IMG/VR virus record: IMGVR_UViG_3300030102_006951
Location: 94,421-158,420 of that record
Length of the DNA: 64,000 bases
Source: a virus
Reading direction: 5' to 3' (one strand)
The position numbers and the translations under genes are program-made. The notes under the pieces are model-generated. The model worked only from the letters and a program-made list of their open reading frames with translations. It was not told where the DNA came from and ran no database searches. This document shows positions 23,123-56,354 of the stretch, piece by piece. Within the stretch, counting starts at the first letter, position 1, and each line of letters starts with the position of its first letter.

Positions 23123-26100
23123 ATGGCAAATAATAGGTTAATACTTAGAAAGATGGTTAGTCCATGGGTTACAGACGCTGTGGATATAACAAGAAATACA
23201 ACATTAACACATGTTGAACTGGATAGTAATTTTATTTACTTAAAGGGTGAGGTGATAGAATCAGCATCTTTAGATGGTGGTAAATTATCTTTAGGTAAAA
23301 TTAATGGTGGCTCCATAGAAGTTGATATGGGTTCATTATCTGGTGATACAGCACACACCGTTAATTTATTGAATGAATTAAAAAATGAATTAGAGGCTAA
23401 TGTTCTTTGGGAGGCTGGTTCTTCTGGAAGAAAATCAATTAGACGTAAAAATGATACTCAAATTGATTCAAGAGGTAGTTATTCTCTTTCTGAGGGTAAA
23501 AATACTTTAGCTAGTGGTGACGCTTCACACGCTGAAGGTGACGGAACTGTAGCTAGTGGTAAGGCTTCACATTCTGAAGGTACTAATACTGAGGCTAGTG
23601 GAGGTAATTCACACGCTGAAGGTTTTAGTAATGTTGCTAGTGGTAACAATTCACACGCTGAAGGTTCAGATAACGTAGCTAGTGGTAACAATTCACACGC
23701 TGAAGGTTCAGATAACGTAGCTAGTGGAGTCGCTTCACATGCTGAGGGTACTGGTAGTGTTGCTTCTGGTAATGCTTCACATGCTGAAGGTTCTGAGACT
23801 GTGGCTAGTGGAGTCGCTTCACATGCTGGAGGCTCTGTAAGCGAGGCTAATGGTGATGTTTCTTTTGTACATTCTAATAATTCAAATTCAGATGGTAAAA
23901 GAAGTGCTATTTTAGGTGGTGATGATAATTTTGTTGAATCTGGAGGTCAAAACTCTGGTGTGTATGTCGGCTTAAGTAATAGAGTTTTAGGTGTTAATTA
24001 TGAAGATATTGTTAATAAACTAAAAGTTGAATTAGATAATTCAATTTCTAATAGGGCAAATGATAAAAAAGTATTTGATGACGCTAAAGAAACTCTTGAA
24101 ATAAAAATTGAACACGCTGATAAAAATATAAAGTTAAATGCATTGGATATTGAAGCTTACAAAGCTGATATTTCTGAAATAGATGCGGAAATTGGTAAAT
24201 TGGATGAAAACTCCAAAGAGGCTTTAGCATTACAAGACTTAAGAGATAAAAAAGAATCTGAATTAAAAATGAAGGAAGAAGAGAATGCCACTCTTTTAAT
24301 TGAAAAAGAAAATTCAGAAAAAGAATTAAAAAAATTAATTGAAGATGAAAATGATGCTGTTAAGCTATTTGAACAAACATCTTTAAAATTACAAGCTGAA
24401 ATAAAATACAATGAAACTCTTTTAGAAACTGAAGATAATCATCCACCAGTTAATTCAGCTATTATAGCTGGTAAAGACAATATGATTGATAGTTCTTCTG
24501 ACTCAATTGTTGGCGCTGGTAGTGATAACGTACTAAAAACTGAAGTTAAAAATTCGGGGATATTTGCTGGTTCAGAAAATGAGATAAGTGGTGATGAATA
24601 TTCAAAATTAATTAAACAATTAAAATATGAATTGTCAGTGGCAAATGAAACTCATGATTATAAAACTTCAATATTAAAGGAAGAAATTGATTCATTAAAA
24701 GAAGAAATAGCTTTTACTAAGTTTACTATTGATAACACTAAAAAAGAAATTGCTGAACTAACAAAGGAATGTGAAGGTGAAGGCACTAATAATGGTGGTC
24801 TGGCCTTATTACAAGAAGATGAGAGTGCGTGTGAAAAGTTGAAGATAGCTAACGCTAATTTAGAAAAATTATCGAAAAAATTAGAAGATTTAAATGAAAC
24901 GCTAAAATCATTAGAAGATGAACTTTCTACCATAAATGAAAAACATGCGTCTTATCAGAAATTTATTACAGAAAAAATAGCTGAATTATCCGCTATATGT
25001 TCTGATGATAAAAACGCACCTGTAGATAACTCTGCAATTATTGCTGGGGCTAATAATCAAATTACTTTATTAAGTGATAACTCTGCTATTGTTGGTGGTC
25101 AAGGAAATAGGATAATGAATTTATCAAATACGGTAATACTTGGTGGTGGAGATATTACTGCGAGAAAAGATAATACCGTGTATACACCTAGCCTTAATAT
25201 TAAAGCTAATCTTGATAGAGATAATTCTTTAACTCAAGTATTAGTTAGGGATGCTGATGGTTATATTAAGTATAAAGATGTTAGTTCGTTTACAGATTTA
25301 AATGTTGTTAGTGGTTCTTATGACCCAGAAACTGGAACTGTAACTATGACTAATAATGAAGGTGATACATTTGAGATAACTGGTTTCGCAAAAGAATTAA
25401 CTGATAGCTACACTACAAATGCATATATAGAAGGTTCTACAATGTATTTTGATAATAACGTCAAAGGTGAAAAATTTTATAGCGTTGATATAAGTAGTTT
25501 AATAGCTGAAGATGAAAAGGGTGATTGTGCTGAAGATAAATGGAAAGAATATAATGACCAAGCCGACTTATATTCAGAGTATCTTAAACTAAAATTAATT
25601 AGTGATGAGATTAAAGAAGACATAGATGATAAAGAAGCTGAGCTAAAAAAATTACAAGGTCATCATTGTTCAACTCCTGGTTATATAATAGAAAGTCTTA
25701 ATATATTAGGTGATATTGTTTCCATAGATGGATTTGCAGATAAATACCAAGACCTTAAAAATTTATCTAAACAAGAGGGTGATGGTAATATTATGCATGC
25801 TATTAACTCATTAATTAACTATCTTGGTGATTTAGATTTAGAAGGTTTAGGTGATGAAGATAAAAAAACTATTGAATCGTTTATATCGGCTAATAAAGAG
25901 CGTTTAGCAGCAATGCTTGGATATAATTCAGAATTATATGATTTGTATATTGAATTATATGGTAGATATCAAGCTGGTGAAATTATCAATTGGGATAATG
26001 ATAAGAATAAATTACAGGTAGAGCTTTTCAATCTAAGAGATACTATAAATCAAATTATTAATGATTTGAATGGTCTTACAAATATATTAACTCCATCAGA

Positions 26101-29100
26101 TGTAGATGCTATACAGGTGTATATTGATGAGTTAATTGATTCTGGCATGCCAGAAGACCCAGCATTAATTAAACAAATTAAGGAATTAATAAGTCTATTA
26201 GACGGATTAAATAAGTTGTTAAAAGATAATGAAGATAATCTAAATAAGTTCATTGAAGAGCATAACTTTTTTGATATAGTAAGTTTTGGAGCTTATATGC
26301 CAATTAATGACACTAACTTTGATTGTTGGGCTTTAAGTCAATTAGAAGACAGGATTGAAGAGTGTTGTACTGGTGGAGAAGAAGAAGTAAGGGGTAAATG
26401 TTCTGAAGCCCTTTATGCACAATATCAAAAACAAGCTTCTGAATATAGTAAAATTAAAGCTAGTTACGATACTTTATTAGCTACTCAATTAGAATTAAAA
26501 GAATCTATTTCTTTAGGTAAATTAGAGTTAGAAGGGTTGATGACCCAAATTAGTGATACTCAAGAGCAAATAATTACACTTGAAAAAGAGTGTGAAGCTT
26601 TTAGTAATCCTTCTGGACTAGCCTTATTGGAAGACCCACAAATTAACCCGTGTGAAGAGCTGGGTAAAACAAAAACACTTTTATTGAATTTACAATCACA
26701 ATTAAAAGAACTCGCTGCTGATATTAAAGAAAAAGAAAAATCTTTAGGTGAAATCGAAATTCAAATGGGGGCTATAGAAGAATCAGAAATATTAGAATTT
26801 GAAGTTTATATGCCAGTTAATGAAGTTAATTTTGATTGTTGGACTGAGAATGAGTTAAAAATAGATTTAGAGACTCAAATAACTAAAATTCTAGAAACAA
26901 TTGGTTACGATTCTAGAGGTGAGTGTTCTGATGAACATTACAATGAATATAAAAAGTTAGTTAGTGAATTAATCAAATCAAATGAGGTTATTGAAACTAA
27001 ACGTAAAGAATTAGCTGAGAATAATTTAATAAAAACAGAACTTGAAAAAGAGATTGATGACCTTGAGAAAGCGTGTGCCGAATTCAAAGCAAGCCAAGCC
27101 GATAAAAAGGCATTAAGTTTATTAGACCACGCGGAGTTTGAAAATAATCCTTGTAATACGCTTATGGGTAAAATAGAAATTTTGGATTCTATAAATAAAC
27201 AGATAGAAGACCAAATTAATTTTATTGATGCTTGGGAATCGTCTAGTGATTATGACTTATTTAACAGATACGCACCAATTAATGAGGTTAACTTTATTTG
27301 TTGGAGGATTGACCAATGTTGTAGTGAGGAAGAAGAAAAGGGCCCATGTGCTACTGAAAAATGGAAAGAATACACATCCTTAGGTGAACAGTATCTAGAA
27401 TATGAGAAAATACAGTCTCAAATTGATGTTATTGATAAACAAATATCAGATAAAGAATCTGAAATTGATTCGTTATTAGAAAATCTTGGTTATATACCAA
27501 AAAGTCAGGCTATGTTGTCCCCAGCTAATATTATTTTTGCTGGTGATGATGATGATGATGGTAAGTCTTTAAAATTATTATTAGAAGAGGATTTTAATCC
27601 TTTAAAATTATTATTATTAGAAAAAGATGGTGATGATGATAAATTAACTGGAAGTATTCGTTTTCGTGATTGGTGGTGTTGTAGAATTCAGAAAAACCCA
27701 GCTTGCTGTTATTTATTTGGTAAAAAATTATTTGGTAAACTTCAAAATATAGGTGGAGTTGGTATTGAGCCAGATGATAATATTTTTGGTGCTGTTAAAG
27801 GATTGAAGGCTGAAATTGATAGTTTAAATAAAACCTCAGCAAGTGGTGACGGTCAAGTAAATATTCCAACTGAATTTTCGAATATGTTAATTGAGTTGAC
27901 AAAAATGGAAGAACAAACTGTAGCTTTGAATAGTCAATATTTTAATAGTATTAAAATATTTGAGGAAGAGGGTGATGCTAAGTCGGCTTATACAAATCCT
28001 AAAATAAGTGGTTACCTTACAGATTTAGATAAAGGTTCGAAAGAATTACAAACTCAATTGGATTCACTGCCTGATGGTTCGGATACTAATGGTCAGTTAC
28101 AAAAACTTATCAACGACTTAAGTCGCAAAGAAACTGAATTTGATTCACAATTAACATCATTAATTAATGATTTAGATGATTTAATTAAACTAAGGGACGT
28201 CTTAATTGAGTCATTAGCCACTTTAGGTGATGTATCAGGTTTTGGAGCTTATATGCCAATTAATGACACTAACTTTGATTGTTGGGCTTTAAGTCAATTA
28301 GAAGACAGGATTGAAGAGTGTTGTGCTGAAGACGTAAAAGGTGAATGTGCTAGTGAAAAATATGCTAGCTATAAAAAACAAGCTCTTGAATATGAAGAAC
28401 GTCAACAAGAAAATTTAGTTAGAGAGACTGAATTAAATAAAATTAATAATGAAATATCGGATAAAGAGAATCAATTAGCTGCATTAAAGGCAGAACTATT
28501 GAACTGTGAAAGTCAGGGTGCTGCGTTGGCATTATTGGAAGACCAAGACCCTTGTGATTTTTTAAAAGGCCAAATTGCTAAGTTGGAGGCTGAAATTAAA
28601 GCCCTTAAAGCCTCAGCGAAAAGCATTAGTGATGAAATTAAGGAATATAATGATTCGGGAGCTGAAGAATGGCTTAATAGGTTTATGCCAATTAATGAAG
28701 TTAATTTTGATTGTTGGACTGAGAATGAGTTAAAAATAAATTTAGAGGCTCAAATAACTAAAATTGTAGAAACAATTGGTTACGGTGATAGAGGTACTTG
28801 TTCTAGTGATAAATACAAGCTTTATCGAGATAAATTAAGCGATGCAGCTAATATTATTGAAAAACAGGGTATTATTGATGATTGTAAAGATAATATTGTA
28901 AGCTGGGAATCGACCATTTCAGATTATGAAGCTTTAATTGCGAAACTTAGTTCGCAAATTCCTGTTGATGTTAGTCAGATTGCAGTGTTAAAGTCTAATA
29001 TTGATGAATTGAAAAAAGATATTAATTCATGTAAAGAAAACATCAATACAAACGAAAAGGAAATTAGAGGTTTACTTGAAAGTAGTGAATGGGCAGATAT

Positions 29101-30190
29101 TACTGAAGTTAAAAGTTTCATATCAGCTTATGGTCCAGATAACGAAGTTAACTTTGATTGTTGGTCTGAGCAGCAGATTATAGATAAGGTTGGTTATGAG
29201 AATAGAGGTGAGTGTTCTAATGAAGCTTATGCTACTTATTTGGATGAAGCTAGGGAAGCTGAAGAAGCTAACGCAGCTTATGAAGCACAAAAAGCTGATT
29301 TAGAAAGAGCTGAAAATGAATTATCGGACAAACAGACTAGATTAGCTGAATTAAAGGCAAAACTAGTAGAGTTAGGCTGTAATGATGCTCAGAATAGTGA
29401 TGGGTTGAAATTATTGCAAGAGCCAGACACTTGTGATGATATTATAGCTCAAATTCAGCTACTTGAGAATGAAATTAAGGCCGATAAAGAAAATATTAAG
29501 AGTTTAAATAATCAAATTAAGGAACATGAAGCTAGCGATGCTTATATTTTCAATGAAAGATACATGCCAGTTAATGAGGTTAACTTCATTTGTTGGGAAA
29601 ACGACAACATTAAGGAACAATTAGATAGAGTTGAATCTAAAATAGATGAATGTTGTCAAACATCTATGGCATACGATTTTGAAAGCGCCTTAACTGAGCT
29701 TAGAGGTAAGGAAGGTAAGGGTGATGCTAATATAGTAGTTGGTAAATTCCCTAAAGTTTATGAAGCTTTTGAAGCTAACCCTAAATTTATTATGGGTGAT
29801 TATGATGAACTTGTAGATATAAATAGTTCATTAGAGTCAAATAAAGATATTATAGTTTCGATGATTGGTAATGATGCCAATTTAATTGAGAGTTTTAATA
29901 ATACAAAAGTAGTTACTGAAACATTAATGGCTGAAGTTATAAAAACGAAAGATGAAACTATTAATGGACTTAATGGAAAAATTGCTTTATATCAATCACA
30001 AATTAAAGCGTTAAAAGATTCAGGTGGAAAGTTAAATACTGATAATATAGAAGACCACGTTAAGTCTATAGAAGCTGAAAGAACCTCCAAAAATAAGTTA
30101 TATGAATATATGACCACTAATTTACAAACGTTCAAAAGTGCTATTAGTGACATTTTAGATGCTTATGAGGCTACAAAAAAAGTAGGTTAA
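23123..30190 (+). CDS. giant (2355 aa) fibre-like protein: YadA-like head repeats plus Cys-clamped coiled-coil modules
   Basis: N-terminal anchor shared with 30205 and 33426; ASGxxSHAEG repeats; seven [RK]GxC...[YF]xPxN(E/D)xNFxCW modules. Confidence 0.75.
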   Translation: MANNRLILRKMVSPWVTDAVDITRNTTLTHVELDSNFIYLKGEVIESASLDGGKLSLGKINGGSIEVDMGSLSGDTAHTVNLLNELKNELEANVLWEAGSSGRKSIRRKNDTQIDSRGSYSLSEGKNTLASGDASHAEGDGTVASGKASHSEGTNTEASGGNSHAEGFSNVASGNNSHAEGSDNVASGNNSHAEGSDNVASGVASHAEGTGSVASGNASHAEGSETVASGVASHAGGSVSEANGDVSFVHSNNSNSDGKRSAILGGDDNFVESGGQNSGVYVGLSNRVLGVNYEDIVNKLKVELDNSISNRANDKKVFDDAKETLEIKIEHADKNIKLNALDIEAYKADISEIDAEIGKLDENSKEALALQDLRDKKESELKMKEEENATLLIEKENSEKELKKLIEDENDAVKLFEQTSLKLQAEIKYNETLLETEDNHPPVNSAIIAGKDNMIDSSSDSIVGAGSDNVLKTEVKNSGIFAGSENEISGDEYSKLIKQLKYELSVANETHDYKTSILKEEIDSLKEEIAFTKFTIDNTKKEIAELTKECEGEGTNNGGLALLQEDESACEKLKIANANLEKLSKKLEDLNETLKSLEDELSTINEKHASYQKFITEKIAELSAICSDDKNAPVDNSAIIAGANNQITLLSDNSAIVGGQGNRIMNLSNTVILGGGDITARKDNTVYTPSLNIKANLDRDNSLTQVLVRDADGYIKYKDVSSFTDLNVVSGSYDPETGTVTMTNNEGDTFEITGFAKELTDSYTTNAYIEGSTMYFDNNVKGEKFYSVDISSLIAEDEKGDCAEDKWKEYNDQADLYSEYLKLKLISDEIKEDIDDKEAELKKLQGHHCSTPGYIIESLNILGDIVSIDGFADKYQDLKNLSKQEGDGNIMHAINSLINYLGDLDLEGLGDEDKKTIESFISANKERLAAMLGYNSELYDLYIELYGRYQAGEIINWDNDKNKLQVELFNLRDTINQIINDLNGLTNILTPSDVDAIQVYIDELIDSGMPEDPALIKQIKELISLLDGLNKLLKDNEDNLNKFIEEHNFFDIVSFGAYMPINDTNFDCWALSQLEDRIEECCTGGEEEVRGKCSEALYAQYQKQASEYSKIKASYDTLLATQLELKESISLGKLELEGLMTQISDTQEQIITLEKECEAFSNPSGLALLEDPQINPCEELGKTKTLLLNLQSQLKELAADIKEKEKSLGEIEIQMGAIEESEILEFEVYMPVNEVNFDCWTENELKIDLETQITKILETIGYDSRGECSDEHYNEYKKLVSELIKSNEVIETKRKELAENNLIKTELEKEIDDLEKACAEFKASQADKKALSLLDHAEFENNPCNTLMGKIEILDSINKQIEDQINFIDAWESSSDYDLFNRYAPINEVNFICWRIDQCCSEEEEKGPCATEKWKEYTSLGEQYLEYEKIQSQIDVIDKQISDKESEIDSLLENLGYIPKSQAMLSPANIIFAGDDDDDGKSLKLLLEEDFNPLKLLLLEKDGDDDKLTGSIRFRDWWCCRIQKNPACCYLFGKKLFGKLQNIGGVGIEPDDNIFGAVKGLKAEIDSLNKTSASGDGQVNIPTEFSNMLIELTKMEEQTVALNSQYFNSIKIFEEEGDAKSAYTNPKISGYLTDLDKGSKELQTQLDSLPDGSDTNGQLQKLINDLSRKETEFDSQLTSLINDLDDLIKLRDVLIESLATLGDVSGFGAYMPINDTNFDCWALSQLEDRIEECCAEDVKGECASEKYASYKKQALEYEERQQENLVRETELNKINNEISDKENQLAALKAELLNCESQGAALALLEDQDPCDFLKGQIAKLEAEIKALKASAKSISDEIKEYNDSGAEEWLNRFMPINEVNFDCWTENELKINLEAQITKIVETIGYGDRGTCSSDKYKLYRDKLSDAANIIEKQGIIDDCKDNIVSWESTISDYEALIAKLSSQIPVDVSQIAVLKSNIDELKKDINSCKENINTNEKEIRGLLESSEWADITEVKSFISAYGPDNEVNFDCWSEQQIIDKVGYENRGECSNEAYATYLDEAREAEEANAAYEAQKADLERAENELSDKQTRLAELKAKLVELGCNDAQNSDGLKLLQEPDTCDDIIAQIQLLENEIKADKENIKSLNNQIKEHEASDAYIFNERYMPVNEVNFICWENDNIKEQLDRVESKIDECCQTSMAYDFESALTELRGKEGKGDANIVVGKFPKVYEAFEANPKFIMGDYDELVDINSSLESNKDIIVSMIGNDANLIESFNNTKVVTETLMAEVIKTKDETINGLNGKIALYQSQIKALKDSGGKLNTDNIEDHVKSIEAERTSKNKLYEYMTTNLQTFKSAISDILDAYEATKKVG
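23636..23727 (+). repeat. 42-bp perfect tandem repeat within YadA-like 14-aa repeats
   Basis: gctagtggtaacaattcacacgctgaaggttcagataacgta x2 plus a partial copy. Confidence 0.9.
26283..26368 (+). repeat. 86-bp perfect direct repeat, copy 1 (copy 2 at 28239-28324)
   Basis: Identical sequence encoding FGAYMPINDTNFDCWALSQLEDRIEECC. Confidence 0.9.
26809..26909 (+). repeat. 101-bp direct repeat, copy 1 (copy 2 at 28684-28784; 4 mismatches)
   Basis: Encodes MPxNEVNFDCWTENELKIxLExQITKIxETIGY. Confidence 0.88.
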
Positions 30191-30204
30191 ATAGAATTAT
30201 TTAA

Positions 30205-31704
30205 ATGAATAGTAATTTAATATTAAGAGTACTTAACAGTCCTTGGATAACACCAGAGCCCGATATTACTAAGGGTTCTGTGTTATCTCATGACGATGTA
30301 GATAATAACTTTATTTATTTAAAGGGTGAGGTGGTATATACAGCTCAAACTTTAGGTAGCACCATAACACTTAAGAAAATAAATGGTAATGATATATCGT
30401 TTGATATTGGTGGTTCTGGGGGTAGTGGAGTTTATTGGACTTCTGGTTCCACTGGTAATGGCTCAATAAGGGTTGTTAATGGAGGTACTACTGATTCTGA
30501 GGGTGATTATAGTTTGGTCACTGGTTTTGATAATTTAATTAGTTCTTTAGGTGGTATTGATTCAGCTGATAATTCTTCAATAATAGGTGGTAATCAAAAT
30601 ACTTTAGATAGGAGTAACGATTCTTCAATAATTGGAGGTAATTTAAATTTTATTAGAAGAGATAATAAAAGGTCTTTAATATTAGGTGGTCATAAGAATC
30701 AAATGTTAGGGCTATATAATACATCAATTAGTGGTATAACTACTTCTGATAATTCTATTATTGGTGGTAGTGATAACACGGTGGCTAACTCTTCAAACAG
30801 TGGTATATTGGGTGGTTTAGATAATGTTATAGAATCTACTGAAGGAAACTTATTGATACAGGATACCATACAAAATTCACATATAATTGCTGGTAGAGAT
30901 AATGTAATCTCACCATCACATATTGATTCTGTAATTCTTGGTGGTAGAGAAAACTCATTAGTTGGTAATAGAAGTAATCCACTTAATACTAATATTGATG
31001 GGATTGAGAATGGAATACTTGGTGGTTATCAAAATAAAATATCTTATGTTGGTAGAAACGGTATAGTTGGTGGTACTAACAACTTAATAAATGGTGAGGG
31101 TAACCCAACTAATAATGTTATTTGTGGTGGTGATAGTAATCATATTAAAGAACTTGCAAATATAAACTCATTTATTGCTGGTGGTGTTAATAACACCATA
31201 GATGCAGAATTATCTACCCCTTCTAGGTATTCACCTAATTCAGCAATAATAGCTGGTAGTGGTAATACAATATTCGCTGAAAGTACTGAAACAGACGGTA
31301 ACATAGTAATAATAGGTGGTAATAATATTACCGCAACTAGTAAAAATACGGTATATGTTCCTAATTTAGAAGTGACTGGACAGGCTTATACACCTATTCA
31401 TGATAATTTAACTGGTAGTACGTCATTCATTCCAGACTGGAATAATTCAAATGTACAAATATTAACTCTTAGTGGCAATACTAGTATTAGTGGTGGTATA
31501 GCTACAATGAAGGGTGGTTCATCGTATACCATGATAGTTAAGCAATCTAACGGTGGTTCTCATAGTATAACTTGGGATTCTACTTATAAGTGGGAAGATG
31601 GTTTGGCTCCAGACCTAACATCTGCTGATGGTTCAGTGGATATATTAACATTCATATGTGACGGAACTAATTTACACGGTTTAATAGCAAAAAACTTTCA
31701 ATAG
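30205..31704 (+). CDS. tail fibre/adhesin-like protein (beta-helix repeats)
   Basis: Shared N-terminal anchor; many SxIIGGxxN repeats; C-terminal Q..GG..ITW..YKW..G.AP.LT...VDILTF fibre domain. Confidence 0.75.
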   Translation: MNSNLILRVLNSPWITPEPDITKGSVLSHDDVDNNFIYLKGEVVYTAQTLGSTITLKKINGNDISFDIGGSGGSGVYWTSGSTGNGSIRVVNGGTTDSEGDYSLVTGFDNLISSLGGIDSADNSSIIGGNQNTLDRSNDSSIIGGNLNFIRRDNKRSLILGGHKNQMLGLYNTSISGITTSDNSIIGGSDNTVANSSNSGILGGLDNVIESTEGNLLIQDTIQNSHIIAGRDNVISPSHIDSVILGGRENSLVGNRSNPLNTNIDGIENGILGGYQNKISYVGRNGIVGGTNNLINGEGNPTNNVICGGDSNHIKELANINSFIAGGVNNTIDAELSTPSRYSPNSAIIAGSGNTIFAESTETDGNIVIIGGNNITATSKNTVYVPNLEVTGQAYTPIHDNLTGSTSFIPDWNNSNVQILTLSGNTSISGGIATMKGGSSYTMIVKQSNGGSHSITWDSTYKWEDGLAPDLTSADGSVDILTFICDGTNLHGLIAKNFQ

Positions 31705-31707
31705 TGT

Positions 31708-33396: not shown

Positions 33397-33425
33397 TAAA
33401 TAATAAAAAGTATAAAAACAAAAAC

Positions 33426-34607: not shown

Positions 34608-34629
34608 TATTTATTAATAAAGGGAAGAT

Positions 34630-35016
34630 ATGGATTTTTACATTAACAAAGGGGCAACATTACCAATACTTAAAATGGAATTAATTAAAGATGGTAGATA
34701 TACTTACAAAGAATTTCATGATATGTTACAGAATAGTGATATATATTTCTGTATGACAGATGTTGTAACTGGTGTTAAAAAGATTGGTAAAAAACCAGCA
34801 GAATGTATTTTAAAATCAGAATATAATGGTTGTGGCGATGATGAATACTATATTGGTTATCGATTTACTAGTAAAGACACTAATAAGCCAGGTAGGTATG
34901 TTGGTAAATTCATAATTGAGTTTTTAGATGGTACTGTACACCCAGAAGGTACTCTTATAGTTCCAATAAGAGAGGAATTATTCATTAATGTATTAGACGG
35001 TTCAATAAAAAAGTAA
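34630..35016 (+). CDS. BppU-like (baseplate upper) Ig-like virion protein
   Basis: FYINKGATLP.L...YRFTSKDTNKPGRYVGKFIIEF pattern. Confidence 0.6.
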   Translation: MDFYINKGATLPILKMELIKDGRYTYKEFHDMLQNSDIYFCMTDVVTGVKKIGKKPAECILKSEYNGCGDDEYYIGYRFTSKDTNKPGRYVGKFIIEFLDGTVHPEGTLIVPIREELFINVLDGSIKK

Positions 35017-35056
35017 CACAAATAGTTGCTTGTTTGATTCAAAACAATTATCTTTA

Positions 35057-35080
35057 TTAATCTTTTTACAAAAAGATTAA
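35057..35080. promoter_or_regulatory. perfect inverted repeat upstream of the polymerase promoter
   Basis: TTAATCTTTTT-AC-AAAAAGATTAA. Confidence 0.5.
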
Positions 35081-43720: not shown

Positions 43721-43721
43721 T

Positions 43722-49358: not shown

Positions 49359-49387
49359 AATAATTTAAATTAAAATAAAAGAAAATA

Positions 49388-50119
49388 ATGGGTATTAGAG
49401 GAAATAGTGGTTTTATTGGTTTGGATTTAAGGACTGGTTCATCTACTGGTGACACTAAGGGTATTGTTGGTAGAAAACAACATTTTTTAGAAAGAACTGA
49501 TGGGCGATATGACCCTCCAAAGATTATCACCACTGGTTCCACGCAAATTGGTAATGGTACTACTGACCAAGAGCATTGTCCAACATACGGATTTTATGAT
49601 TTTGGATGGTCTGGTATAATTTACACGTCTTCTGAGATGTCTGTAGATTTTACTGGACCTAAAACTATTACTGATTTGGTTTTTGATTACGGATACCTTA
49701 ATAGTAGTGGAAATGATGCATTTGATGACCTTAGGGTTTTCTGTGGTCACTATAATGCTGACACATTCCCAAGTTCTCCAGATGAGGATATAGAGGACTA
49801 TACTGGTATTACAGATTGGACTCAATGTACTAATAATGGCTATGTTTGGTCTCCAGAAACTGTTGGTTTTAATTACAGTGAAAGAATAACATTTGACACA
49901 CCATTTGAATATAATGGGACTGATAGACTTGTAATTAAAATAGAACAGAGGGAGGGTGAATACCAAGACCAACCAAGAATATTTTGGAACTCTTCCACTG
50001 GTACTGATTCTGTGGCGTATAATAGACAGGATGGTTCTTACCCGACTGGTTCTGGTATAAGGACAAATGTTAAACCTAACATAATAATACATTATAATAT
50101 GTCAGGTAATTTAGTTTAA
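49388..50119 (+). CDS. virion accessory / adhesin-like protein
   Basis: Short N-terminal segment plus a domain with IIYTSSEM, ITFDTPFEYNGTDRLVI and KPNI, reminiscent of Bacteroidota surface-protein domains. Confidence 0.55.
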   Translation: MGIRGNSGFIGLDLRTGSSTGDTKGIVGRKQHFLERTDGRYDPPKIITTGSTQIGNGTTDQEHCPTYGFYDFGWSGIIYTSSEMSVDFTGPKTITDLVFDYGYLNSSGNDAFDDLRVFCGHYNADTFPSSPDEDIEDYTGITDWTQCTNNGYVWSPETVGFNYSERITFDTPFEYNGTDRLVIKIEQREGEYQDQPRIFWNSSTGTDSVAYNRQDGSYPTGSGIRTNVKPNIIIHYNMSGNLV

Positions 50120-50146
50120 ATAAAAAATATTTATAAAATAAAAGTA

Positions 50147-50791
50147 ATGGGTTACATAAAAATAGGTAAAAATAAAGGGTATGATAAAACACTACCTAGA
50201 TATCAATTTAAGGAGATTTTAGATAGTGATTATGAAGACATATCTTCTATTAGAAATTGGTTTGACGCTCCAGTGTATGCTAATGTTGATTACATATATT
50301 CTAAAGATGGTGCCACTGGTTATATGGATAATAATGGTGGTTTTTCATCATTCTCAGAAAATGATAGGATTAAATTAGCAAAGAATTTTTGTGTTGATAA
50401 AGCAGATAGGGATACGGTTATAAGTGATGATGAACAAGAGTTATCTTGGGATATATTTGTTTATAATTCACATAATGCTAGAAATCGAAGGTGGAATATA
50501 GCTAGGTCTTTTATTTCATATAGGTTAACACCAAATGAATCTTCTGATTTAGGTGATTCAACTGACATGCTTACATCAAGATACTTAAGATATGGCATTG
50601 AGAGTGAGGTTGAGGATGGTAAGCCTGGTATTTATGATTGGATTAAGGATGAAAACCATTATAGTGGTGGTACTGGATTTTCTAGTAAGAGTTATTATTC
50701 TACAGATTTAAGAGACGGGATAATAGATAGACTTAATGGGAATGTCTTTGATTTACCAATATTACCAGAAATTGAAATAATAAAACCATAA
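50147..50791 (+). CDS. hypothetical protein (late operon)
   Basis: 214-aa ORF preceded by ATATTTAT at 50127. Confidence 0.7.
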   Translation: MGYIKIGKNKGYDKTLPRYQFKEILDSDYEDISSIRNWFDAPVYANVDYIYSKDGATGYMDNNGGFSSFSENDRIKLAKNFCVDKADRDTVISDDEQELSWDIFVYNSHNARNRRWNIARSFISYRLTPNESSDLGDSTDMLTSRYLRYGIESEVEDGKPGIYDWIKDENHYSGGTGFSSKSYYSTDLRDGIIDRLNGNVFDLPILPEIEIIKP

Positions 50792-50818
50792 AATAAAATA
50801 TTTATAAAATAAAATAAT

Positions 50819-51148
50819 ATGGAATATTTAAATACAGGTAGTCACTTAGGTACTGGTTCAACAACGGTACTTAGTGCATCAACTACAACAAAATATCTAG
50901 TTAAATCGGTTCATGCAACTAATGTTTTTAGTGGTGATACATCTTTTGCTTTATCTTGGGTTGATAATAGTGAGTCTCAAACTTATAAGTTAGCTTTTAA
51001 TGTTAGAATACCAGAGGGTTCTTCGTTTCAGGCTTTAGACAATACGTTTACTTTAGAAAACTTAGATAGTTTACAGGCAAATTGTGGTTCTGACAATGCA
51101 ATTGACTTATCTATATCTTACATGGAAATAAATAATAGTGAGGGTTAA
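50819..51148 (+). CDS. small beta-rich virion protein
   Basis: S/T-rich 109-aa ORF; ATATTTAT at 50798. Confidence 0.65.
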   Translation: MEYLNTGSHLGTGSTTVLSASTTTKYLVKSVHATNVFSGDTSFALSWVDNSESQTYKLAFNVRIPEGSSFQALDNTFTLENLDSLQANCGSDNAIDLSISYMEINNSEG

Positions 51149-51157
51149 TAGTACTAA

Positions 51158-51637
51158 ATGGCTATAAGAATTAAAACTGCTAAGTTAGATGACTTAAGTC
51201 ATCAATTCGGTGAAGGGGTTCCTAGTCATCTTTCACCAATAGGTTCTCAATTTGTTAACGAACTTAATGGTGATATATATTACAATAGGGATGGTGGTAG
51301 CTCTTGGGAGCTTAGTGTTGCACATATAACAAATATAAATTATAAACAAACTACAGACCAGCCAGATAGATACGGTAAAGGTGGTTCTGATGTTATGAAT
51401 GACCTAATGGGTGGATTTGTAAATAAAGAAGTGGCTGTTAGAGTAAGTAACTCAAATAATAAAAAGTTTTTATTGAATAATATACCCAAATTAAATAGTG
51501 AAGATGTTTATATAAATGGTGTTCTACAAGATAGAGAGCGTAAGCCAAACTATGTTTTAGATGGTAGAACTATAACTTTTAGGGTGCCAATTGGGGAAAG
51601 TAATACTGTTTTGGTTAGTTACATTGTTGATGAATAA
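51158..51637 (+). CDS. virion protein with VYINGVLQ-type beta domain
   Basis: SEDVYINGVLQ..NYVLDGRTITF..P....VLVSY, a common phage structural module. Confidence 0.6.
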   Translation: MAIRIKTAKLDDLSHQFGEGVPSHLSPIGSQFVNELNGDIYYNRDGGSSWELSVAHITNINYKQTTDQPDRYGKGGSDVMNDLMGGFVNKEVAVRVSNSNNKKFLLNNIPKLNSEDVYINGVLQDRERKPNYVLDGRTITFRVPIGESNTVLVSYIVDE

Positions 51638-51737
51638 GTCAAATATAAAACATTATAGTTAAAATTAATAAAAAATATTTTTTTTTAAACAACATTAACT
51701 CCTTATCTTATATTTATAAATAAGAATTATTATAACT

Positions 51738-51971
51738 ATGAAAGAAACAAAAATTTACAAAACGTCAGACATGTATTTAGCGGCATTTTTAAAGCTAAAT
51801 GAACAAAAGTTGAGGGTCGAAAAAAATAAAGGTAAGGCTGCTTTTATATTCGATAGCTCTCCTGAATTACTTGAATTGGTTAATACTTATTTAACCGAAG
51901 AAGGTAGCTGTAATCCTTTACTATACACTAATTCTATTAAGAATTTAAAAAACCTCATTTATAATCTTTAA
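51738..51971 (+). CDS. DUF5659-like small protein
   Basis: YKTSDMYLAAFL...FIF...Y..SIKNLK. Confidence 0.6.
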   Translation: MKETKIYKTSDMYLAAFLKLNEQKLRVEKNKGKAAFIFDSSPELLELVNTYLTEEGSCNPLLYTNSIKNLKNLIYNL

Positions 51972-51977
51972 ATAATT

Positions 51978-52012
51978 AAAATGGTGGGGTTTAATTCTCA
52001 CCATTTTTTTTT
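51978..52012 (+). terminator. intrinsic terminator
   Basis: AAAATGGTGGG-loop-CTCACCATTTT followed by a T-run. Confidence 0.8.
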
Positions 52013-52025
52013 ACAAAACACGCAT

Positions 52026-53093
52026 ATGCTTGGTATATCACTTGTTGTCGGTAGTTTGTCTAAAATTGTCATTGATTATGTTAATAATTTTAATAAAAAT
52101 AATTTAAACTCTGGTAAGGAGTGTATTATTTTAGTTAAGGATTTTAAAGCTATATATCAAGAATTTAAGGTTGATAAGTTAGTCATAAAGTTAGGTTATT
52201 TAAATGAATATTTACATAATGATTCTGGATTTGATTCTGAAAAATCAGAATACATCGTATATATAAATTTAAATAAGAAAAAGATAAAACTTAGTAGTAT
52301 TATGCATGAGCTTAAGCATGCATATGTTGATTGGTGTATTTTTAAAAATGGGGGTGTGGCCATAAAAGATAGTCTAGAGGTTAAAGAGCTTTATACAAAT
52401 GGATTTGAAGACTTATTAACCGTGGATAAACACAAAATACCTTTATTACAACCAATTATAAGATGTTTTTATTATACCACTAAACTAGAGATACCAGCCT
52501 TTTTAGAAAATCAATTATGTGATTCAAATTTTTATTATAAAAAGAGGATAAACAACATGCTTAATATGAATATGGATGACTTTAAGAATAAAGCATGTGA
52601 AAAAGAGTTTGAGATAATCAGGTCGTATAATATACCCAGATTCAATAGGTTTAAAAATTATTTAGATTTCTTGGATTACTGTGACGGGTTTTTTAAAAAA
52701 AGAGGTGGGTATATTAAAAAGAAGTTGAATAAAGTAGATTACTTTTTGAAGGTTGCTGATAATGATTGGTTGGCTCATTTACTTATAAACCATACTAATG
52801 GAACTAAGATATTAAGTAATCTAGAATGGAAACTTATATTTAATTTGTCTAATACAGTTATAAGTAATAGAGGTCAATGGGATTTTCCAGGAGAATGTAC
52901 TTTAATTATAAGTAAGACTAAAAGAATAACAATGGTTAATGTTAATCATGATGTTTTAGGTATTGATAGTACAGGTAAGTTTATTCTTATGAAACCAGGT
53001 TTGAAGTATCAATTCAATAGTGAATTTATATTTGAAATACCTTATATGGGCAAATGGAAGGGGTTAGTAAAAAAAATCGTTAATAAGTGTTAA
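52026..53093 (+). CDS. HExxH (zincin-like) protein with C-terminal phage domain; start 52026 preferred
   Basis: IMHELKHAY; C-terminal RGQWDFPG..ITM.NV..DVLGID.TG...MKPG..Y.F; the ATG at 51981 lies inside the terminator stem. Confidence 0.6.
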   Translation: MLGISLVVGSLSKIVIDYVNNFNKNNLNSGKECIILVKDFKAIYQEFKVDKLVIKLGYLNEYLHNDSGFDSEKSEYIVYINLNKKKIKLSSIMHELKHAYVDWCIFKNGGVAIKDSLEVKELYTNGFEDLLTVDKHKIPLLQPIIRCFYYTTKLEIPAFLENQLCDSNFYYKKRINNMLNMNMDDFKNKACEKEFEIIRSYNIPRFNRFKNYLDFLDYCDGFFKKRGGYIKKKLNKVDYFLKVADNDWLAHLLINHTNGTKILSNLEWKLIFNLSNTVISNRGQWDFPGECTLIISKTKRITMVNVNHDVLGIDSTGKFILMKPGLKYQFNSEFIFEIPYMGKWKGLVKKIVNKC

Positions 53094-53162
53094 AAAAAAT
53101 GTCTTTTACCTCGAGTGGGTATATTTATATTACGAGTGCCTGAATTGGTGCCAATTATTTAT

Positions 53163-53269
53163 ATTTATATTCTTATTAGAAATCTTTTAATCAAAAAGAT
53201 TTAATTCACAAATTTATATTCTTATTAGGAATCTTTTAATCAAAAAGATTTAATTCACAAATTTATATT
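53163..53269 (+). repeat. 49-bp tandem duplication containing an inverted repeat
   Basis: atttatattcttattag(a/g)aatcttttaatcaaaaagatttaattcacaa x2 (1 mismatch) plus a partial third copy. Confidence 0.9.
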
Positions 53270-53347
53270 TATTTTTTATTTATATCCAAAAAAACATGAA
53301 CGAATGTTTAAATAATAATAATAAAATAAAAAACAAAAAAATAAATT

Positions 53348-54586
53348 ATGAAAAATTATAATAGATTATTTTTATTACAACCAGATGAGCCAACACAAGA
53401 AGAAAAGAATGCCTTGGCAAAAGCAATGGCTGAATCTGATTATGCTGGTACTCCAATAGAAAATACCATACCTTCTCAAAAAGATGTTGCGATTGGTGAA
53501 ATTGGACTTGGACAGCTTAAGGTGTTAGACCGTTTAACGGTGCCTGTTGACTCAATGTTACCTAGAAACATCTGCATGCCTAGTTTGCAAGATGATGGTA
53601 ATTTTGACTTCTCAACTAGCATGTTCGAAGTGCTTAATGGATTGATGAGAAAAGAGGTGTTCAAGGACGTTCAGACAGATGGTCTAGAGACTATTGCTAA
53701 TCTTGGTGATACACTTGGTTTAAGAGCTAGAATTAATGCGTTAACTAACGTTGAGTCAGCTGAAGCATATGAAGCATTTGGTGGATTCACAAGTCCAATC
53801 GAAGCTCCAACAACTGAAGAACAGATATTAGATGCTATTGAAAAGGGTAGTGATGCTATTGCTCATCATGTGGCTACTAAGGCTTCAACAGAAGAAGTTG
53901 GTGAAAAATTCTATATCGAGCAACCTTTTACTGGTATGATAAAAGTAAACGGGGTTAACCAAGATAGTTCTCAAGTTGAATTTGAAACTGGTAGTATGGG
54001 CGCTAAAATAGCTGTTTCATTCCTTAATCCAGATGGAAATCCAGTTGCTTTAACTAAAGGTTCTATAGTATCTAGTGTTAGTAATGCTGGTATTAAAGAA
54101 GCATATGATAAATTTGTCGAAAGTAACAATACAAATTCAGAGATATTTGCTGATGAATCAAGTGATTATTCTGATTATGTAACACAGGCGAATAGTGATA
54201 GAGCTGATAAGGCTAGTGCTAAAACTGCTGCTGATGCTGATTTGACTGCGGCTATAGCCGATGTGGATGCTAAACAAACTGCATTTGACTCAGCGGTAGA
54301 TGAGTTAAGTAGTAGTACTACTGTTGATGGAGCAAAAGCGGCTATTACAAAATCTAAAAAAGCTAGAATTGCACTACATAAAGCAAATAATACAAAATCT
54401 AATGCACAAGCAAAAGTAGATAAATTAACTGAAGAATTAGCTGCTATTGATGATGCTATTGCTAAATCAGCTACTATGAAAACAAAAGCTGATGCTGCTC
54501 AGGCTGAAGAATCGGCTAATTTTAAGGCTGCTATTGAGAAGGCTGAAGTTTTAGCTCGTGAGGTTAAAAACGCAAGCTTTATATAA
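53348..54586 (+). CDS. coiled-coil putative virion protein, paralogue A
   Basis: Shares PSQ..I.L.QL.VLDR..M..NI..P.L.DDG and KGSIVS blocks with 54708; Ala/Lys-rich C-terminal coil. Confidence 0.7.
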   Translation: MKNYNRLFLLQPDEPTQEEKNALAKAMAESDYAGTPIENTIPSQKDVAIGEIGLGQLKVLDRLTVPVDSMLPRNICMPSLQDDGNFDFSTSMFEVLNGLMRKEVFKDVQTDGLETIANLGDTLGLRARINALTNVESAEAYEAFGGFTSPIEAPTTEEQILDAIEKGSDAIAHHVATKASTEEVGEKFYIEQPFTGMIKVNGVNQDSSQVEFETGSMGAKIAVSFLNPDGNPVALTKGSIVSSVSNAGIKEAYDKFVESNNTNSEIFADESSDYSDYVTQANSDRADKASAKTAADADLTAAIADVDAKQTAFDSAVDELSSSTTVDGAKAAITKSKKARIALHKANNTKSNAQAKVDKLTEELAAIDDAIAKSATMKTKADAAQAEESANFKAAIEKAEVLAREVKNASFI

Positions 54587-54631
54587 CAATAAAAAAACTA
54601 ACTTATTAAATTAATAGGTTTATATTAATTT

Positions 54632-54664
54632 AAAATGGGGGTTGTTATTAAGACCCCCTATTTT
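54632..54664 (+). terminator. intrinsic terminator
   Basis: GGGGGT-loop-ACCCCC-TATTTT. Confidence 0.7.
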
Positions 54665-54707
54665 AAGAAAATAATGAATAACAAAAAAATAAAATAATAT
54701 AAAAATT

Positions 54708-56354
54708 ATGAAAAAATATAATAAATTATTTTTACTTGAGGAACCTGAGCATCATGATAACTCTTTACCTAGTTCGGTTACATCTGAATTAGATGGTGTT
54801 GGACTGCCCACGCAATTTGAAGCTAGGCTTACTATCTATCCAGATGGTGGAGAAGACGAAGTAAGAGGGTATAGTCTTGAGCAGTTAAATGCATTGCTTT
54901 TGAGTGGAAAGTCTCTAATGGATGAACGTGCTTATGCTGGATTTCAGACATATTGGGGCAAATACTTAGAATGGTTTAGATTCGCATCCTTGCGTGCAAT
55001 CTATCTACCGATTGCTTTAGAGTATGCTGCCTTTGTTGTTAAGCTAGAGAAAGAGTTGAAATTCATTTCTGACCTTATAGAGGCGAAAGAAGCTGAAAAT
55101 TCTGGTGGTAACGGTGGTGCTACTGTTCCAGCTCCTCCTACAGTAGAAGACAACGATACGCCTTATACTAAGCATATAAAAGCGATGCTTCAACCTGATT
55201 ATCCTGGACACAGTCCTGAAAAAGCTATGCCTTCTCAAGAGAATCAATTAGCGCCTACTATCGACTTGCACCAGTTAACGGTATTAGATAGAGATGTGGA
55301 GTTGCAAAGTCCTATGTTCTGGAAGAACATTTCTTTTCCTCAGCTTGGAGATGACGGACAATATACGATGTCAACTGTATATGACGTAGTTTATAACTTG
55401 ATGACAAATGAGTCTAAAGAGGATAAAATTACAGATTTAGCTGAAAAGTTAATAGCAGACCTAGAGATTCTTCAACTGACTGAAATAGTTACTTCTTTAG
55501 AGGCAGAACCAGTTGATTTAGTGCCTTATGAAAGACTTGCAAGGTATAGTGCAAACGCAATTATACCATTTGCAAATGCTAAAGGTACAAGAGATGTTAG
55601 AGTCATTGAGTCCACACCAGCATTGGGAAATAAAGGTGAGGTATTTACATTTAATGGTAGAATTGATGAGAAATCAGTAGTTGAATTAGCTGGTGTTGCA
55701 CAAGTAGAAGGCGTAGATTTTAGATACGTTAAAGAAGGTGATGACATCATTGGTGTCGTATTAGTCAATTCTGAAGGTGATGTTATACCTAAGAAGGGGT
55801 CTATAGTTTCTATTGTTACTTCTTCATTTGTAAACTTACCTAAGGAGAAAACAATGTTGGAAGATGTGATAGCTGAGAATCGAGCAACTTTAACTGCACA
55901 AAACGATGCTTTTGATGTTTGGGAAACAGCTTACGTTTCTACAAAGTCTGAAAAGGAAGCTGAGAAAAGTCAATTAGAGGCTGATATAAAAGCTTTAGAA
56001 GCTGATGTAGCAGCAGCTATACTTGCTATTCATAACCCAGATGCAGAATCATCTGATGAAAATGGCATGATTCAAAATATATTTGGTGCTGAAAACGTTA
56101 ATGATGCAAAAGAAATAGCATCTGATAATGTTAAGCCAGCACTAGATGAGTTGAAATCATCTTTGGCTGAACTTGAAACTAAAAAACGAAAATTAGTTGA
56201 ATTAAAAGAGGTTTGTGAAGACCTTTATGAAGCTAATGAGGAAAGTAAAAAGTTTAGTGAGGACGACAGAGAATTGTTGGAGGCTGCTATTGAAGACCAA
56301 AATTCTGGTTTACAAAGGGTCATTGACATGATTGAAGCTATCCCAGCTGCATAA
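54708..56354 (+). CDS. coiled-coil putative virion protein, paralogue B
   Basis: Homology blocks with 53348; acidic C-terminal coiled coil. Confidence 0.7.
   Translation: MKKYNKLFLLEEPEHHDNSLPSSVTSELDGVGLPTQFEARLTIYPDGGEDEVRGYSLEQLNALLLSGKSLMDERAYAGFQTYWGKYLEWFRFASLRAIYLPIALEYAAFVVKLEKELKFISDLIEAKEAENSGGNGGATVPAPPTVEDNDTPYTKHIKAMLQPDYPGHSPEKAMPSQENQLAPTIDLHQLTVLDRDVELQSPMFWKNISFPQLGDDGQYTMSTVYDVVYNLMTNESKEDKITDLAEKLIADLEILQLTEIVTSLEAEPVDLVPYERLARYSANAIIPFANAKGTRDVRVIESTPALGNKGEVFTFNGRIDEKSVVELAGVAQVEGVDFRYVKEGDDIIGVVLVNSEGDVIPKKGSIVSIVTSSFVNLPKEKTMLEDVIAENRATLTAQNDAFDVWETAYVSTKSEKEAEKSQLEADIKALEADVAAAILAIHNPDAESSDENGMIQNIFGAENVNDAKEIASDNVKPALDELKSSLAELETKKRKLVELKEVCEDLYEANEESKKFSEDDRELLEAAIEDQNSGLQRVIDMIEAIPAA

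What the first reader, a model, noticed from the sequence alone, without database searches (positions are those of the whole stretch)
24797..54752. L-x-L-L-[E/Q] peptide at hairpin tips matches the N-termini of two distant paralogues
Hairpin turns of the giant fibre carry a motif usually bracketed by two Cys: C..GLALLQEDESAC (24797), C..GLALLEDPQINPC (26615), C..ALSLLDHAEFENNPC (27110), SLKLLLEEDFNPLKLLLLEKD (27566), C..ALALLEDQDPC (28523), C..GLKLLQEPDTC (29402). The proteins at 53348 and 54708 start MKNYNRLFLLQPDEP and MKKYNKLFLLEEPEH. Inference: this is a shared short linear motif, either a docking site for a decorating protein or enzyme, or a protease site in a disulfide-closed loop, linking three coiled-coil proteins about 25 kb apart into one system.
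Basis: partly seen in the sequence, partly recalled or inferred. Interest (0 to 1): 0.7.

Follow-up and report, generated by a model that had tools for sequence, protein, structure and literature searches.

The report
Fibre tip loops versus capsid-targeting-like leaders
The leucine-rich peptide is really there, both in loops of a giant phage fibre and at the start of two paralogous proteins, but the two sets are probably separate features: fibre loops found only in this phage lineage, and a T4-style head-loading and cleavage leader.

Summary
The sites are real. The 2,355-aa fibre has six strict L-x-L-L-[E/Q/D] matches, against 0.5 expected, plus one L-x-L-L-L-E variant. Five lie in Cys-bracketed loops at the tips of predicted helical hairpins, not in the heptad core.

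The tip motif is not conserved. In four divergent homologues the hairpin junction motif is nearly invariant, but none of their roughly 20 tips has the Cys pair or the motif.

The proteins at 53348 and 54708 are true paralogues, and their first 11 residues are their best-conserved part. A Tara homologue only 27% identical has the first 13 residues identical.

The link is weak. A profile of the tips scores these N-termini no better than unrelated sites in the DNA polymerase and a head-module ORF.

The phage is T4-like. It encodes an S77 prohead protease, and its capsid protein keeps the T4 L-x-E cut site. The leaders resemble T4's capsid targeting sequence.

Best reading: two separate features, with the link unproven. 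This scan has noted T4-like head-loading tags before on other DNA.

The parts
23123..30190 (+). Giant fibre gene (2,355 aa). It has an N-terminal beta-repeat region followed by hairpin cassettes. Each cassette is bounded by a conserved junction motif: Y-M-P-[IV]-N-E-V-N-F-x-C-W, a linker, then G-Y-x-x-R-G-x-C-S.
   Evidence: PHROG tail-fibre hits are weak. The neighbouring genes are tail-fibre or baseplate-like.
24770..24832 (+). Tip loop 1, from Cys550 to Cys570, with L-A-L-L-Q-E. It sits in a hairpin inserted in the N-terminal beta-repeat region.
26591..26653 (+). Tip loop 2, from Cys1157 to Cys1177, with L-A-L-L-E-D-P.
   Evidence: The orthologous module of P0006 has no Cys pair and no motif.
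27074..27154 (+). Tip loop 3, from Cys1318 to Cys1344, with L-S-L-L-D.
27545..27640 (+). Doubled copy (L-K-L-L-L-E-E and L-K-L-L-L-L-E-K) between poly-Asp runs. It is not Cys-bracketed and lies just before the conserved W-W-C-C...C-C-Y block.
   Evidence: The homologous module of P0005 keeps the Cys/Trp block but has no Leu motif.
28505..28555 (+). Tip loop 5, from Cys1795 to Cys1811, with L-A-L-L-E-D.
29378..29434 (+). Tip loop 6, from Cys2086 to Cys2104, with L-K-L-L-Q-E-P. This is the module that was modelled.
53348..53380 (+). 11-residue N-terminal leader of the 412-aa paralogue. It ends L-F-L-L-Q, so there is no Glu at the expected cut position.
53348..54586 (+). Paralogue 1 (P0002, 412 aa): leader, a conserved 75-aa block, a small beta domain and a C-terminal Ala/Lys-rich coil.
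54708..54740 (+). 11-residue N-terminal leader of the 548-aa paralogue. It ends F-L-L-E, which fits hydrophobic-L-x-E.
54708..56354 (+). Paralogue 2 (P0003, 548 aa). It has a 129-residue insert directly after the leader, then a beta domain and a long C-terminal coil.

Best explanation
There are two separate features that share only a run of leucines followed by an acidic residue. (1) The first 11 residues of the paralogues at 53348 and 54708 are a T4-type N-terminal leader, that is, a capsid-targeting and prohead-protease propeptide. It would direct these abundant coiled-coil proteins to the prohead core. In the 548-aa protein it would be cut off after the Glu of F-L-L-E by the phage's S77 protease. 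The 412-aa protein has Gln there and would be targeted but not cut. This step is inferred, not shown. (2) The Cys-bracketed L-x-L-L-[E/Q/D] loops are a lineage-specific addition to the tips of the helical hairpin cassettes of a tail-associated giant fibre. The chains associate through the conserved junction motifs, and the hairpins project outward. After lysis, in oxic water, the two Cys would close each tip into a loop that displays a small hydrophobic patch next to acidic residues. That patch would most likely serve as a weak adhesive or contact surface. The loop position is shown by sequence and model. The disulfide and the adhesive role are inferred.
For: Setting: the phage is T4-like, with a sheath and tube, a gp23-like capsid protein and a Peptidase_S77 match at 93.5 bits. 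The capsid protein aligns its S-L-L-T-E|S-T-T site with the T4 gp23 F-L-T-E|A and gp24 L-L-R-E|S-T-T cut sites. The scaffold, the protease and a 255-aa ORF after the portal carry hydrophobic-L-x-E within their first 20 residues.

Leader: T4 IPII and IPIII start M-K-T-Y-Q-E-F-I-A-E. The leaders here start M-K-x-Y-N-x-L-F-L-L-[E/Q]. They share the M-K-x-Y-amide start and the hydrophobic-aliphatic-x-Glu end, and are one residue longer. In T4, residues 4 and 7 matter for targeting and residues 8 and 10 for processing, and a changed residue 10 blocks cutting but not loading (PMC9026906). The leader is the best-conserved part of the paralogues and is identical over 13 residues in a homologue that is 27% identical overall. 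SPN3US gp53 and gp54 show the same pattern, with identical cleavable N-termini on diverged paralogues (PMC5694885).

Tips: Gly and Pro flank the motif. In the AF2 model the helices have pLDDT above 90 and the motif lies in loop 89-105. None of 15 canonical modules in P0005, P0006 and P0007, nor the module in P0015, has the tip motif, while the junction motif is kept in every module. A three-copy model passed with a score of 0.59 against a best control of 0.22. That mark was reached by 20 of 30 solved same-chain pairs and by 1 of 23 single chains. The runs agree in at least 3% of contacts, the partner pLDDT is at least 59, and one of the three runs scored 0.00. All confident contacts lie in junction residues 17-40 and 150-166, and none in the tip.

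Separation: the tip profile ranks the leaders level with unrelated sites.
Against: - The leader sits only on paralogues and their homologue. In the 158-kb piece no clearly unrelated protein carries it, so portability, the hallmark of a capsid targeting sequence, is not shown.
- M-K-x-[Y/F] starts are common here, in 15 of 225 ORFs.
- One paralogue has Gln instead of Glu at the cut position.
- The two genes lie among tail and fibre genes, about 65 kb from the head module, and encode long coils unlike T4's small internal proteins.
- The scaffold that a targeting sequence would bind is very diverged from T4 gp22.
- The tip motif spread to non-orthologous modules and to two non-hairpin contexts in this lineage. 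This argues for selection on the peptide itself and leaves room for a specific partner.
- Both sets alternate E and Q and are followed by acidic residues and Pro.
- The loop in the model has pLDDT of only 52-62.
Confidence: 0.42

Rival explanations
1. One reading: one short linear motif, displayed in the fibre loops and at the two N-termini, is bound or cut by the same partner, and so ties the three proteins into one system.
For: - The core L-x-L-L-[E/Q] is followed by acidic residues and Pro in both sets, and both sets alternate E and Q.
- The leaders are among the five best non-fibre matches to the tip profile out of about 46,500 positions.
- The tip motif was gained on non-orthologous modules and in two other contexts in this lineage only. 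This suggests selection for the peptide, possibly copying an older N-terminal peptide.
- The motif is exposed in both places.
Against: - Unrelated sites score the same.
- Outside the fibre the motif is not enriched: 6 observed against 3.5 expected.
- Each set has conserved features that the other lacks.
- The homologues' fibres lack the tip motif, while a homologue of the paralogues keeps the leader.
- No partner was identified. The neighbouring HExxH ORF (51981-53093) and the ORFs at 56454-59032 gave no informative family.
Confidence: 0.15
2. The N-terminal 11-13 residues are a virion-attachment anchor, for example a donated beta strand. It would plug the two fibrous coiled-coil paralogues into a neck, collar or baseplate socket and would not be cleaved. 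The fibre tips are unrelated.
For: - The genes lie in the late structural region between a 1,878-aa repeat fibre and the sheath.
- The proteins have a long C-terminal coil, as fibritin-like whiskers do.
- Gln in one paralogue is tolerated, which fits binding better than Glu-specific cutting.
- The leader is found only on homologues.
Against: - Known fibre anchors are usually whole domains rather than 11 residues (general knowledge, not tested here).
- The match to the T4 leader in length, start and end, together with a T4-type protease and L-x-E sites in the head proteins, is then a coincidence.
- A 129-residue insert directly after the leader in one paralogue fits a detachable tag better than a structured anchor.
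Confidence: 0.23
3. The fibre tip loops are cleavage sites for a secreted or virion-associated protease, so that the disulfide holds the nicked loop together. Candidates are the phage's M43 metallopeptidase or the HExxH ORF at 51981-53093.
For: - Six of the seven copies contain L-x-E.
- The phage encodes a signal-peptide M43 peptidase with a type IX secretion sorting tail, and an HExxH ORF lies just upstream of the paralogues.
- The Cys bracket would keep a cut loop together.
Against: - The final residue varies between E, Q and D.
- The prohead protease acts only inside proheads, according to T4 knowledge.
- Nothing links M43 specificity to this peptide.
- Fibre homologues function without the loop.
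Confidence: 0.05
4. Neither motif has a specific function. The tips are a neutral by-product of module duplication, and the N-terminal identity reflects translation-initiation constraints on AT-rich 5' codons.
For: - Two tip-bearing modules are each other's best match.
- The leaders are AT-rich, and both genes have similar A-rich upstream regions.
Against: - The tip codons differ while the residues are kept.
- The motif also sits in modules whose nearest relative is in another protein, and in non-hairpin contexts.
- Leu10 uses TTA in one paralogue and CTT in the other.
- 13 of 13 residues are identical at 27% overall identity.
Confidence: 0.1

Closest known systems
Capsid targeting sequence (CTS) of phage T4 internal proteins IPII and IPIII, removed by the gp21 protease (Mullaney and Black 1996, as reviewed in PMC9026906)
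   Same: - It is N-terminal and 10-11 residues long.
- It starts M-K-x-Y-(Q/N) and ends hydrophobic-aliphatic-x-Glu.
- The genome has a gp21-type S77 protease, and its capsid protein keeps the T4 cut site.
   Different: - It is one residue longer.
- One paralogue has Gln at the cut position.
- It is carried only by homologous 400-600-aa coiled-coil proteins, not by small unrelated proteins.
- Loading and cutting are untested.
Salmonella phage SPN3US gp53/gp54 (phiKZ gp93 family): diverged paralogous head proteins with identical cleavable N-termini (PMC5694885)
   Same: The paralogues have diverged strongly but keep the first 11-15 residues, which contain the protease motif.
   Different: There is no sequence similarity. 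SPN3US cuts at A-x-E and has much longer propeptides. Those proteins are shown by mass spectrometry to be in the head, and these are not.
Coiled-coil phage fibres such as T4 fibritin, and proteins with Pfam PTR (phage tail repeat-like) repeats
   Same: It is a long alpha-helical fibrous virion protein encoded among tail-fibre genes. The N-terminal part has beta repeats like those of the PTR-bearing 1,878-aa neighbour, and both match phrog_25468.
   Different: The helices fold back as hairpins between conserved Cys-containing junctions, rather than running as one parallel coil. No Pfam family matches above threshold, and there is no match in 50,697 GenBank phage records.
Cys-flanked internal fusion loops at helical-hairpin tips of class I viral fusion proteins (recalled from memory, a lead only)
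   Same: A short hydrophobic peptide is displayed in a loop closed by two Cys, next to long helices.
   Different: There is no homology. The hydrophobic run here is only 4-5 residues long and sits next to acidic residues. No membrane role was tested.

Membership tests
T4-type capsid targeting sequence / gp21-cleaved propeptide | A short peptide of 10-20 residues at the very N-terminus | tested here: met
   11 residues are conserved between the paralogues, and 13 are identical in P0009/P0010.
T4-type capsid targeting sequence / gp21-cleaved propeptide | Ends in the protease's cut motif, (L/I)-x-E | tested here: inconclusive
   F-L-L-E in P0003 and P0009/P0010 fits. P0002 has F-L-L-Q.
T4-type capsid targeting sequence / gp21-cleaved propeptide | The genome encodes a gp21-type (S77) prohead protease with Glu specificity | tested here: met
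   PF03420 match at 93.5 bits, E 9e-28. The capsid protein's cut site aligns with T4 gp23 and gp24. The specificity itself is inferred.
T4-type capsid targeting sequence / gp21-cleaved propeptide | The same leader sits on otherwise unrelated proteins (a portable tag) | tested here: not met
   Only the paralogues carry it. The next-best N-terminus, a 155-aa ORF at genome 31909 with L-E-L-L-E at residues 7-11, scores 18 against 56-59. Only about half of the genome is available.
T4-type capsid targeting sequence / gp21-cleaved propeptide | The protein is found inside the head and its leader is removed | not testable with these tools
   This needs virion proteomics.
Shared short linear motif (one partner for tips and N-termini) | The motif is conserved in homologues of each carrier | tested here: not met
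   The tips are absent from P0005, P0006, P0007 and P0015. The N-terminal peptide is conserved.
Shared short linear motif (one partner for tips and N-termini) | The match between the two sets exceeds chance in the proteome | tested here: inconclusive
   The leaders score 11.5 bits, against 12.0 and 11.5 for unrelated sites. Outside the fibre the motif occurs 6 times against 3.5 expected.
Shared short linear motif (one partner for tips and N-termini) | The motif lies in an exposed, non-core position | tested here: met
   The tip motif lies in a loop between helices, flanked by Gly and Pro. The N-terminus has low model confidence, so no inference about disorder is drawn from it.
Shared short linear motif (one partner for tips and N-termini) | A partner has been identified | not tested
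   No candidate stood out.

The most novel reading that the evidence does not exclude
The fibre of this lineage has acquired seven copies of a peptide that mimics the older N-terminal leader of the two coiled-coil paralogues. One phage-encoded or host receptor then binds all of them. Examples would be a docking system that decorates the fibre's hairpin tips, or a shared assembly or quality-control factor for three coiled-coil virion proteins.
Probability: 0.12. Interest if true: 0.7.

Novelty: new member of a known kind. Interest (0 to 1): 0.35.

Why it matters
- **Leader.** If the leader is a capsid-loading tag, two abundant coiled-coil proteins of an uncultured marine T4-like phage are head-internal or core proteins. 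The host is probably a member of the Bacteroidota. The T4 targeting code (M-K-x-Y ... hydrophobic-L-x-E) would then reach much further across the T4 superfamily than the T-even phages.
- **Fibre.** The fibre belongs to an undescribed family of Cys-stapled hairpin cassettes. Its lineage-specific tip loops are a natural example of peptides grafted onto a repetitive scaffold, which bears on host recognition and on display engineering.
- **Claimed link.** The claimed three-protein system would be more interesting, but it is not supported at present.

Tried and rejected
- **Relatives in IMG/VR.** Searches with P0002, P0003, P0009 and the module alignment found none.
- **Leader as a DNA pattern.** A back-translated leader pattern gave 0 hits in IMG/VR. 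It gave 35 hits in metagenome contigs, all chance matches in ORFs of 2-57 codons.
- **Co-occurrence.** The contigs of P0005, P0006, P0007, P0009 and P0010 could not be read, so co-occurrence of the leader and the tips in relatives could not be tested.
- **Identity of the paralogues.**
  - Word-based homology search with P0003 found only its own cluster.
  - The full HMMER profile found only P0009.
  - GenBank phages gave no match for P0003 or the cassettes.
  - Pfam and PHROGs gave nothing for P0002, P0003, P0010, the HExxH ORF or most neighbours.
  - The ESM Atlas gave scores of 0.78 or less and TM of 0.23 or less, which is not usable.
  - The PDB profile search gave only coiled-coil noise.
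  - The AF2 model of P0003 was too poor (mean pLDDT 49) for a fold search, so none was run.
- **Rejected readings.**
  - Heptad core: the motif lies in a loop.
  - DnaK site served by the nearby J-domain gene: the flanks are acidic rather than basic (general knowledge).
  - Signal peptide: the hydrophobic run is only four residues.
  - Recent gene conversion as the sole cause of the tips: the codons differ.
Full report
**What the window is.** The window is the last 64 kb of a 158-kb viral record with 30% G+C that CheckV rates about 48% complete. It is a distant T4-like myophage.
- The sheath is at 59377-62223 and the tube at 62394-62882, and there is a family B polymerase.
- The capsid protein is gp23-like. 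Its nearest cultured relative is Flavobacterium phage immuto, at 38% identity.
- A Peptidase_S77 (T4 gp21-type) prohead protease lies upstream of the window.
- An M43 peptidase with a type IX secretion sorting tail points to a host in the Bacteroidota.
- Homologues come from Tara and GOS sea-water samples.

- Strict L-x-L-L-[E/Q/D] occurs six times in the 2,355-aa fibre, against 0.52 expected from shuffling and a maximum of 3 in 500 shuffles. There is one further L-x-L-L-L-E variant.
- In the other 224 ORFs it occurs six times, against 3.5 +/- 1.8 expected.

**Anatomy of the fibre.** From residue 1050 onward the protein is a series of cassettes. Each has a junction (Y-M-P-[IV]-N-E-V-N-F-x-C-W, a linker, then G-Y-x-x-R-G-x-C-S), a helix of about 50 residues, a tip, and a return helix of about 40 residues that leads into the next junction.
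- An AF2 model of one cassette gives two helices with pLDDT above 90. Between them is a 17-residue loop that holds G-L-K-L-L-Q, with pLDDT 52-62.
- Gly and Pro flank the motif in every copy. The motif is therefore not part of the heptad core.
- A three-copy model passed its controls, with a score of 0.59 against a best control of 0.22.
  - That mark was reached by 20 of 30 solved same-chain pairs and by 1 of 23 single chains.
  - The runs agree in at least 3% of contacts, and the partner pLDDT is at least 59.
  - One run scored 0.00.
  - The calibration counts hold only roughly, because my own alignment and three copies were used.
  - All confident contacts lie in the junction residues and none in the tip.
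  - This supports, but does not show, association through the junctions with free, projecting tips. The contacts could also be a domain-swapped picture of the closure at the base of a hairpin within one chain.

**Conservation of the tips.** Four divergent homologues were found: P0005 (33% identity), P0006 (30%), P0007 (25%) and the fragment P0015.
- All of them keep the junction motif in every cassette.
- None of their tips has the Cys pair or the leucine motif. Their tips are short, polar and Pro-rich.
- The module with the conserved W-W-C-C...C-C-Y block is shared with P0005, but the doubled leucine motif in front of it is not.
- Cassette 1065 of this fibre is most similar to a cassette of P0006 rather than to its own sisters, yet only the copy here has the tip loop. 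Cassettes 1717 and 2010 are each other's best match.
- The tip loop is thus a private feature of this lineage. It spread partly by internal duplication and partly onto older, non-orthologous cassettes. It also reached two other contexts: a hairpin in the N-terminal beta-repeat region, and the poly-Asp-flanked double copy.
- The codons differ between copies.
It also suggests that the peptide is under selection in this phage.

**The two downstream proteins.** They are true paralogues (E 3e-14, 27% identity).
- Their first 11 residues are the best-conserved stretch, with 9 identical. In the longer paralogue a 129-residue insert follows directly.
- A full HMMER search of 1.8 billion representatives found one further family member, P0009 (full-length form P0010), from a Tara surface sample. 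It is 27% identical overall, but its first 13 residues are identical.
- The N-terminal peptide is therefore strongly constrained at protein level. Leu10 is TTA in one gene and CTT in the other.

**Is it the same motif as the tips?** A profile built from the five Cys-bracketed tips was run over all 46,537 residues of the record.
- It scores the two N-termini at 11.5 bits, level with an unrelated site in the polymerase (12.0) and one in a head-module ORF (11.5).
- The features conserved in the leaders (M-K-x-Y-N and Phe8) are absent from the tips. The features conserved in the tips (a preceding Gly or Ala, a small residue at x, the Cys bracket) are absent from the leaders.
- Both sets do alternate E and Q and are followed by acidic residues and Pro.
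- So a link cannot be excluded, but it is no stronger than chance matches in the same proteome.

**A better account of the N-termini.** T4 IPII and IPIII begin with a ten-residue capsid targeting sequence, read here from the T4 record. The leaders here share its M-K-x-Y-amide start and its hydrophobic-aliphatic-x-Glu end, and are one residue longer.
- In T4, residues 4 and 7 govern loading and residues 8 and 10 govern cutting. A changed residue 10 blocks cutting but not loading (PMC9026906). That would explain the Gln in the 412-aa paralogue.
- This phage has the matching protease. Its capsid protein aligns an S-L-L-T-E|S-T-T site with the gp23 and gp24 cut sites of T4.
- Its scaffold, its protease and a 255-aa ORF after the portal carry hydrophobic-L-x-E within their first 20 residues.
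- SPN3US offers a direct precedent for diverged paralogous head proteins that keep identical cleavable N-termini (PMC5694885).

**Weaknesses of that account.**
- The leader is not found on unrelated proteins in the available half-genome.
- The only other L-x-L-L-E at residues 7-11 is on a 155-aa ORF of unknown function. That is a suggestive coincidence, with a rough chance of 1-5%.
- M-K-x-[Y/F] starts are common, in 15 of 225 ORFs.
- The genes sit among tail genes.
- An anchor peptide for fibrous proteins remains a serious rival.

**Verdict.** The proposed three-protein system is not supported. The most likely picture is a T4-style leader on two paralogues, plus unrelated lineage-specific, exposed, Cys-closed hydrophobic tip loops on a new kind of hairpin-cassette fibre. 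This scan has reported T4-like head-loading tags before in other uncultured T4-like phages. Those notes are unchecked and were not used as evidence. I reached the capsid-targeting reading before seeing them.

Noticed in passing
window 26273-29608 (fibre residues 1051-2162): The junction motif Y-M-P-[IV]-N-E-V-N-F-x-C-W ... G-Y-x-D-R-G-x-C-S is nearly invariant in every cassette of four marine metagenomic homologues that are 25-33% identical. It has no Pfam family and no match in GenBank phages. In a three-copy model it forms the whole confident interface.
   Followed up: partly
window 27641-27765 (fibre residues about 1507-1548): The cationic block W-W-C-C-R-I-Q-x-N-P-A-C-C-Y-x-[FW]-G-K-K-L-F is conserved in P0005 residues about 1070-1095, unlike the leucine motif that precedes it here.
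   Followed up: partly
genome 86794-88044 (L038:11795-13045), upstream of the window: Next to the capsid gene lies a 416-aa protein with a signal peptide, a Peptidase_M43 domain (E 1e-11) and a weak type IX secretion C-terminal sorting domain. It would be a phage-borne secreted metallopeptidase and points to a host in the Bacteroidota.
   Followed up: partly
genome 80522-80869 (L038:5523-5870): A 115-aa PAS-domain protein (PAS_3, E 7e-18) lies inside the head module, between the portal and the prohead protease.
   Followed up: no
genome 82580-84025 (L038:7581-9026): The ORF in the scaffold position is 481 aa and extremely acidic. It contains three tandem copies of a 30-residue Glu/Met/Tyr-rich unit of roughly 30 residues that includes a Cys, and an L-D-E|A site at residue 10.
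   Followed up: no
genome 31909-32376 (L039:1910-2377): A 155-aa ORF of unknown function has L-E-L-L-E at residues 7-11, the same register as the two paralogues. It has no Pfam or PHROG match.
   Followed up: partly
window 17769-18197 (-) and genome 54786-55535, 79644-80411: Three further ORFs start M-K-x-[Y/F] and have hydrophobic-L-x-E at residues 13-17. Among the 15 M-K-x-[Y/F] ORFs, 6 have such a site in residues 5-25, against 26 of the 210 others.
   Followed up: partly
window 51981-53093: A 370-aa ORF with an H-E-x-x-H motif lies directly upstream of the paralogues. It has no Pfam or PHROG match, so a metalloprotease role is unverified.
   Followed up: partly
window 53348-56354: The protein cluster of P0003 is recorded on 32 contigs, the longest 279,754 bases. 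The real genome may therefore be a jumbo phage of about 280 kb, of which this record is roughly half.
   Followed up: no
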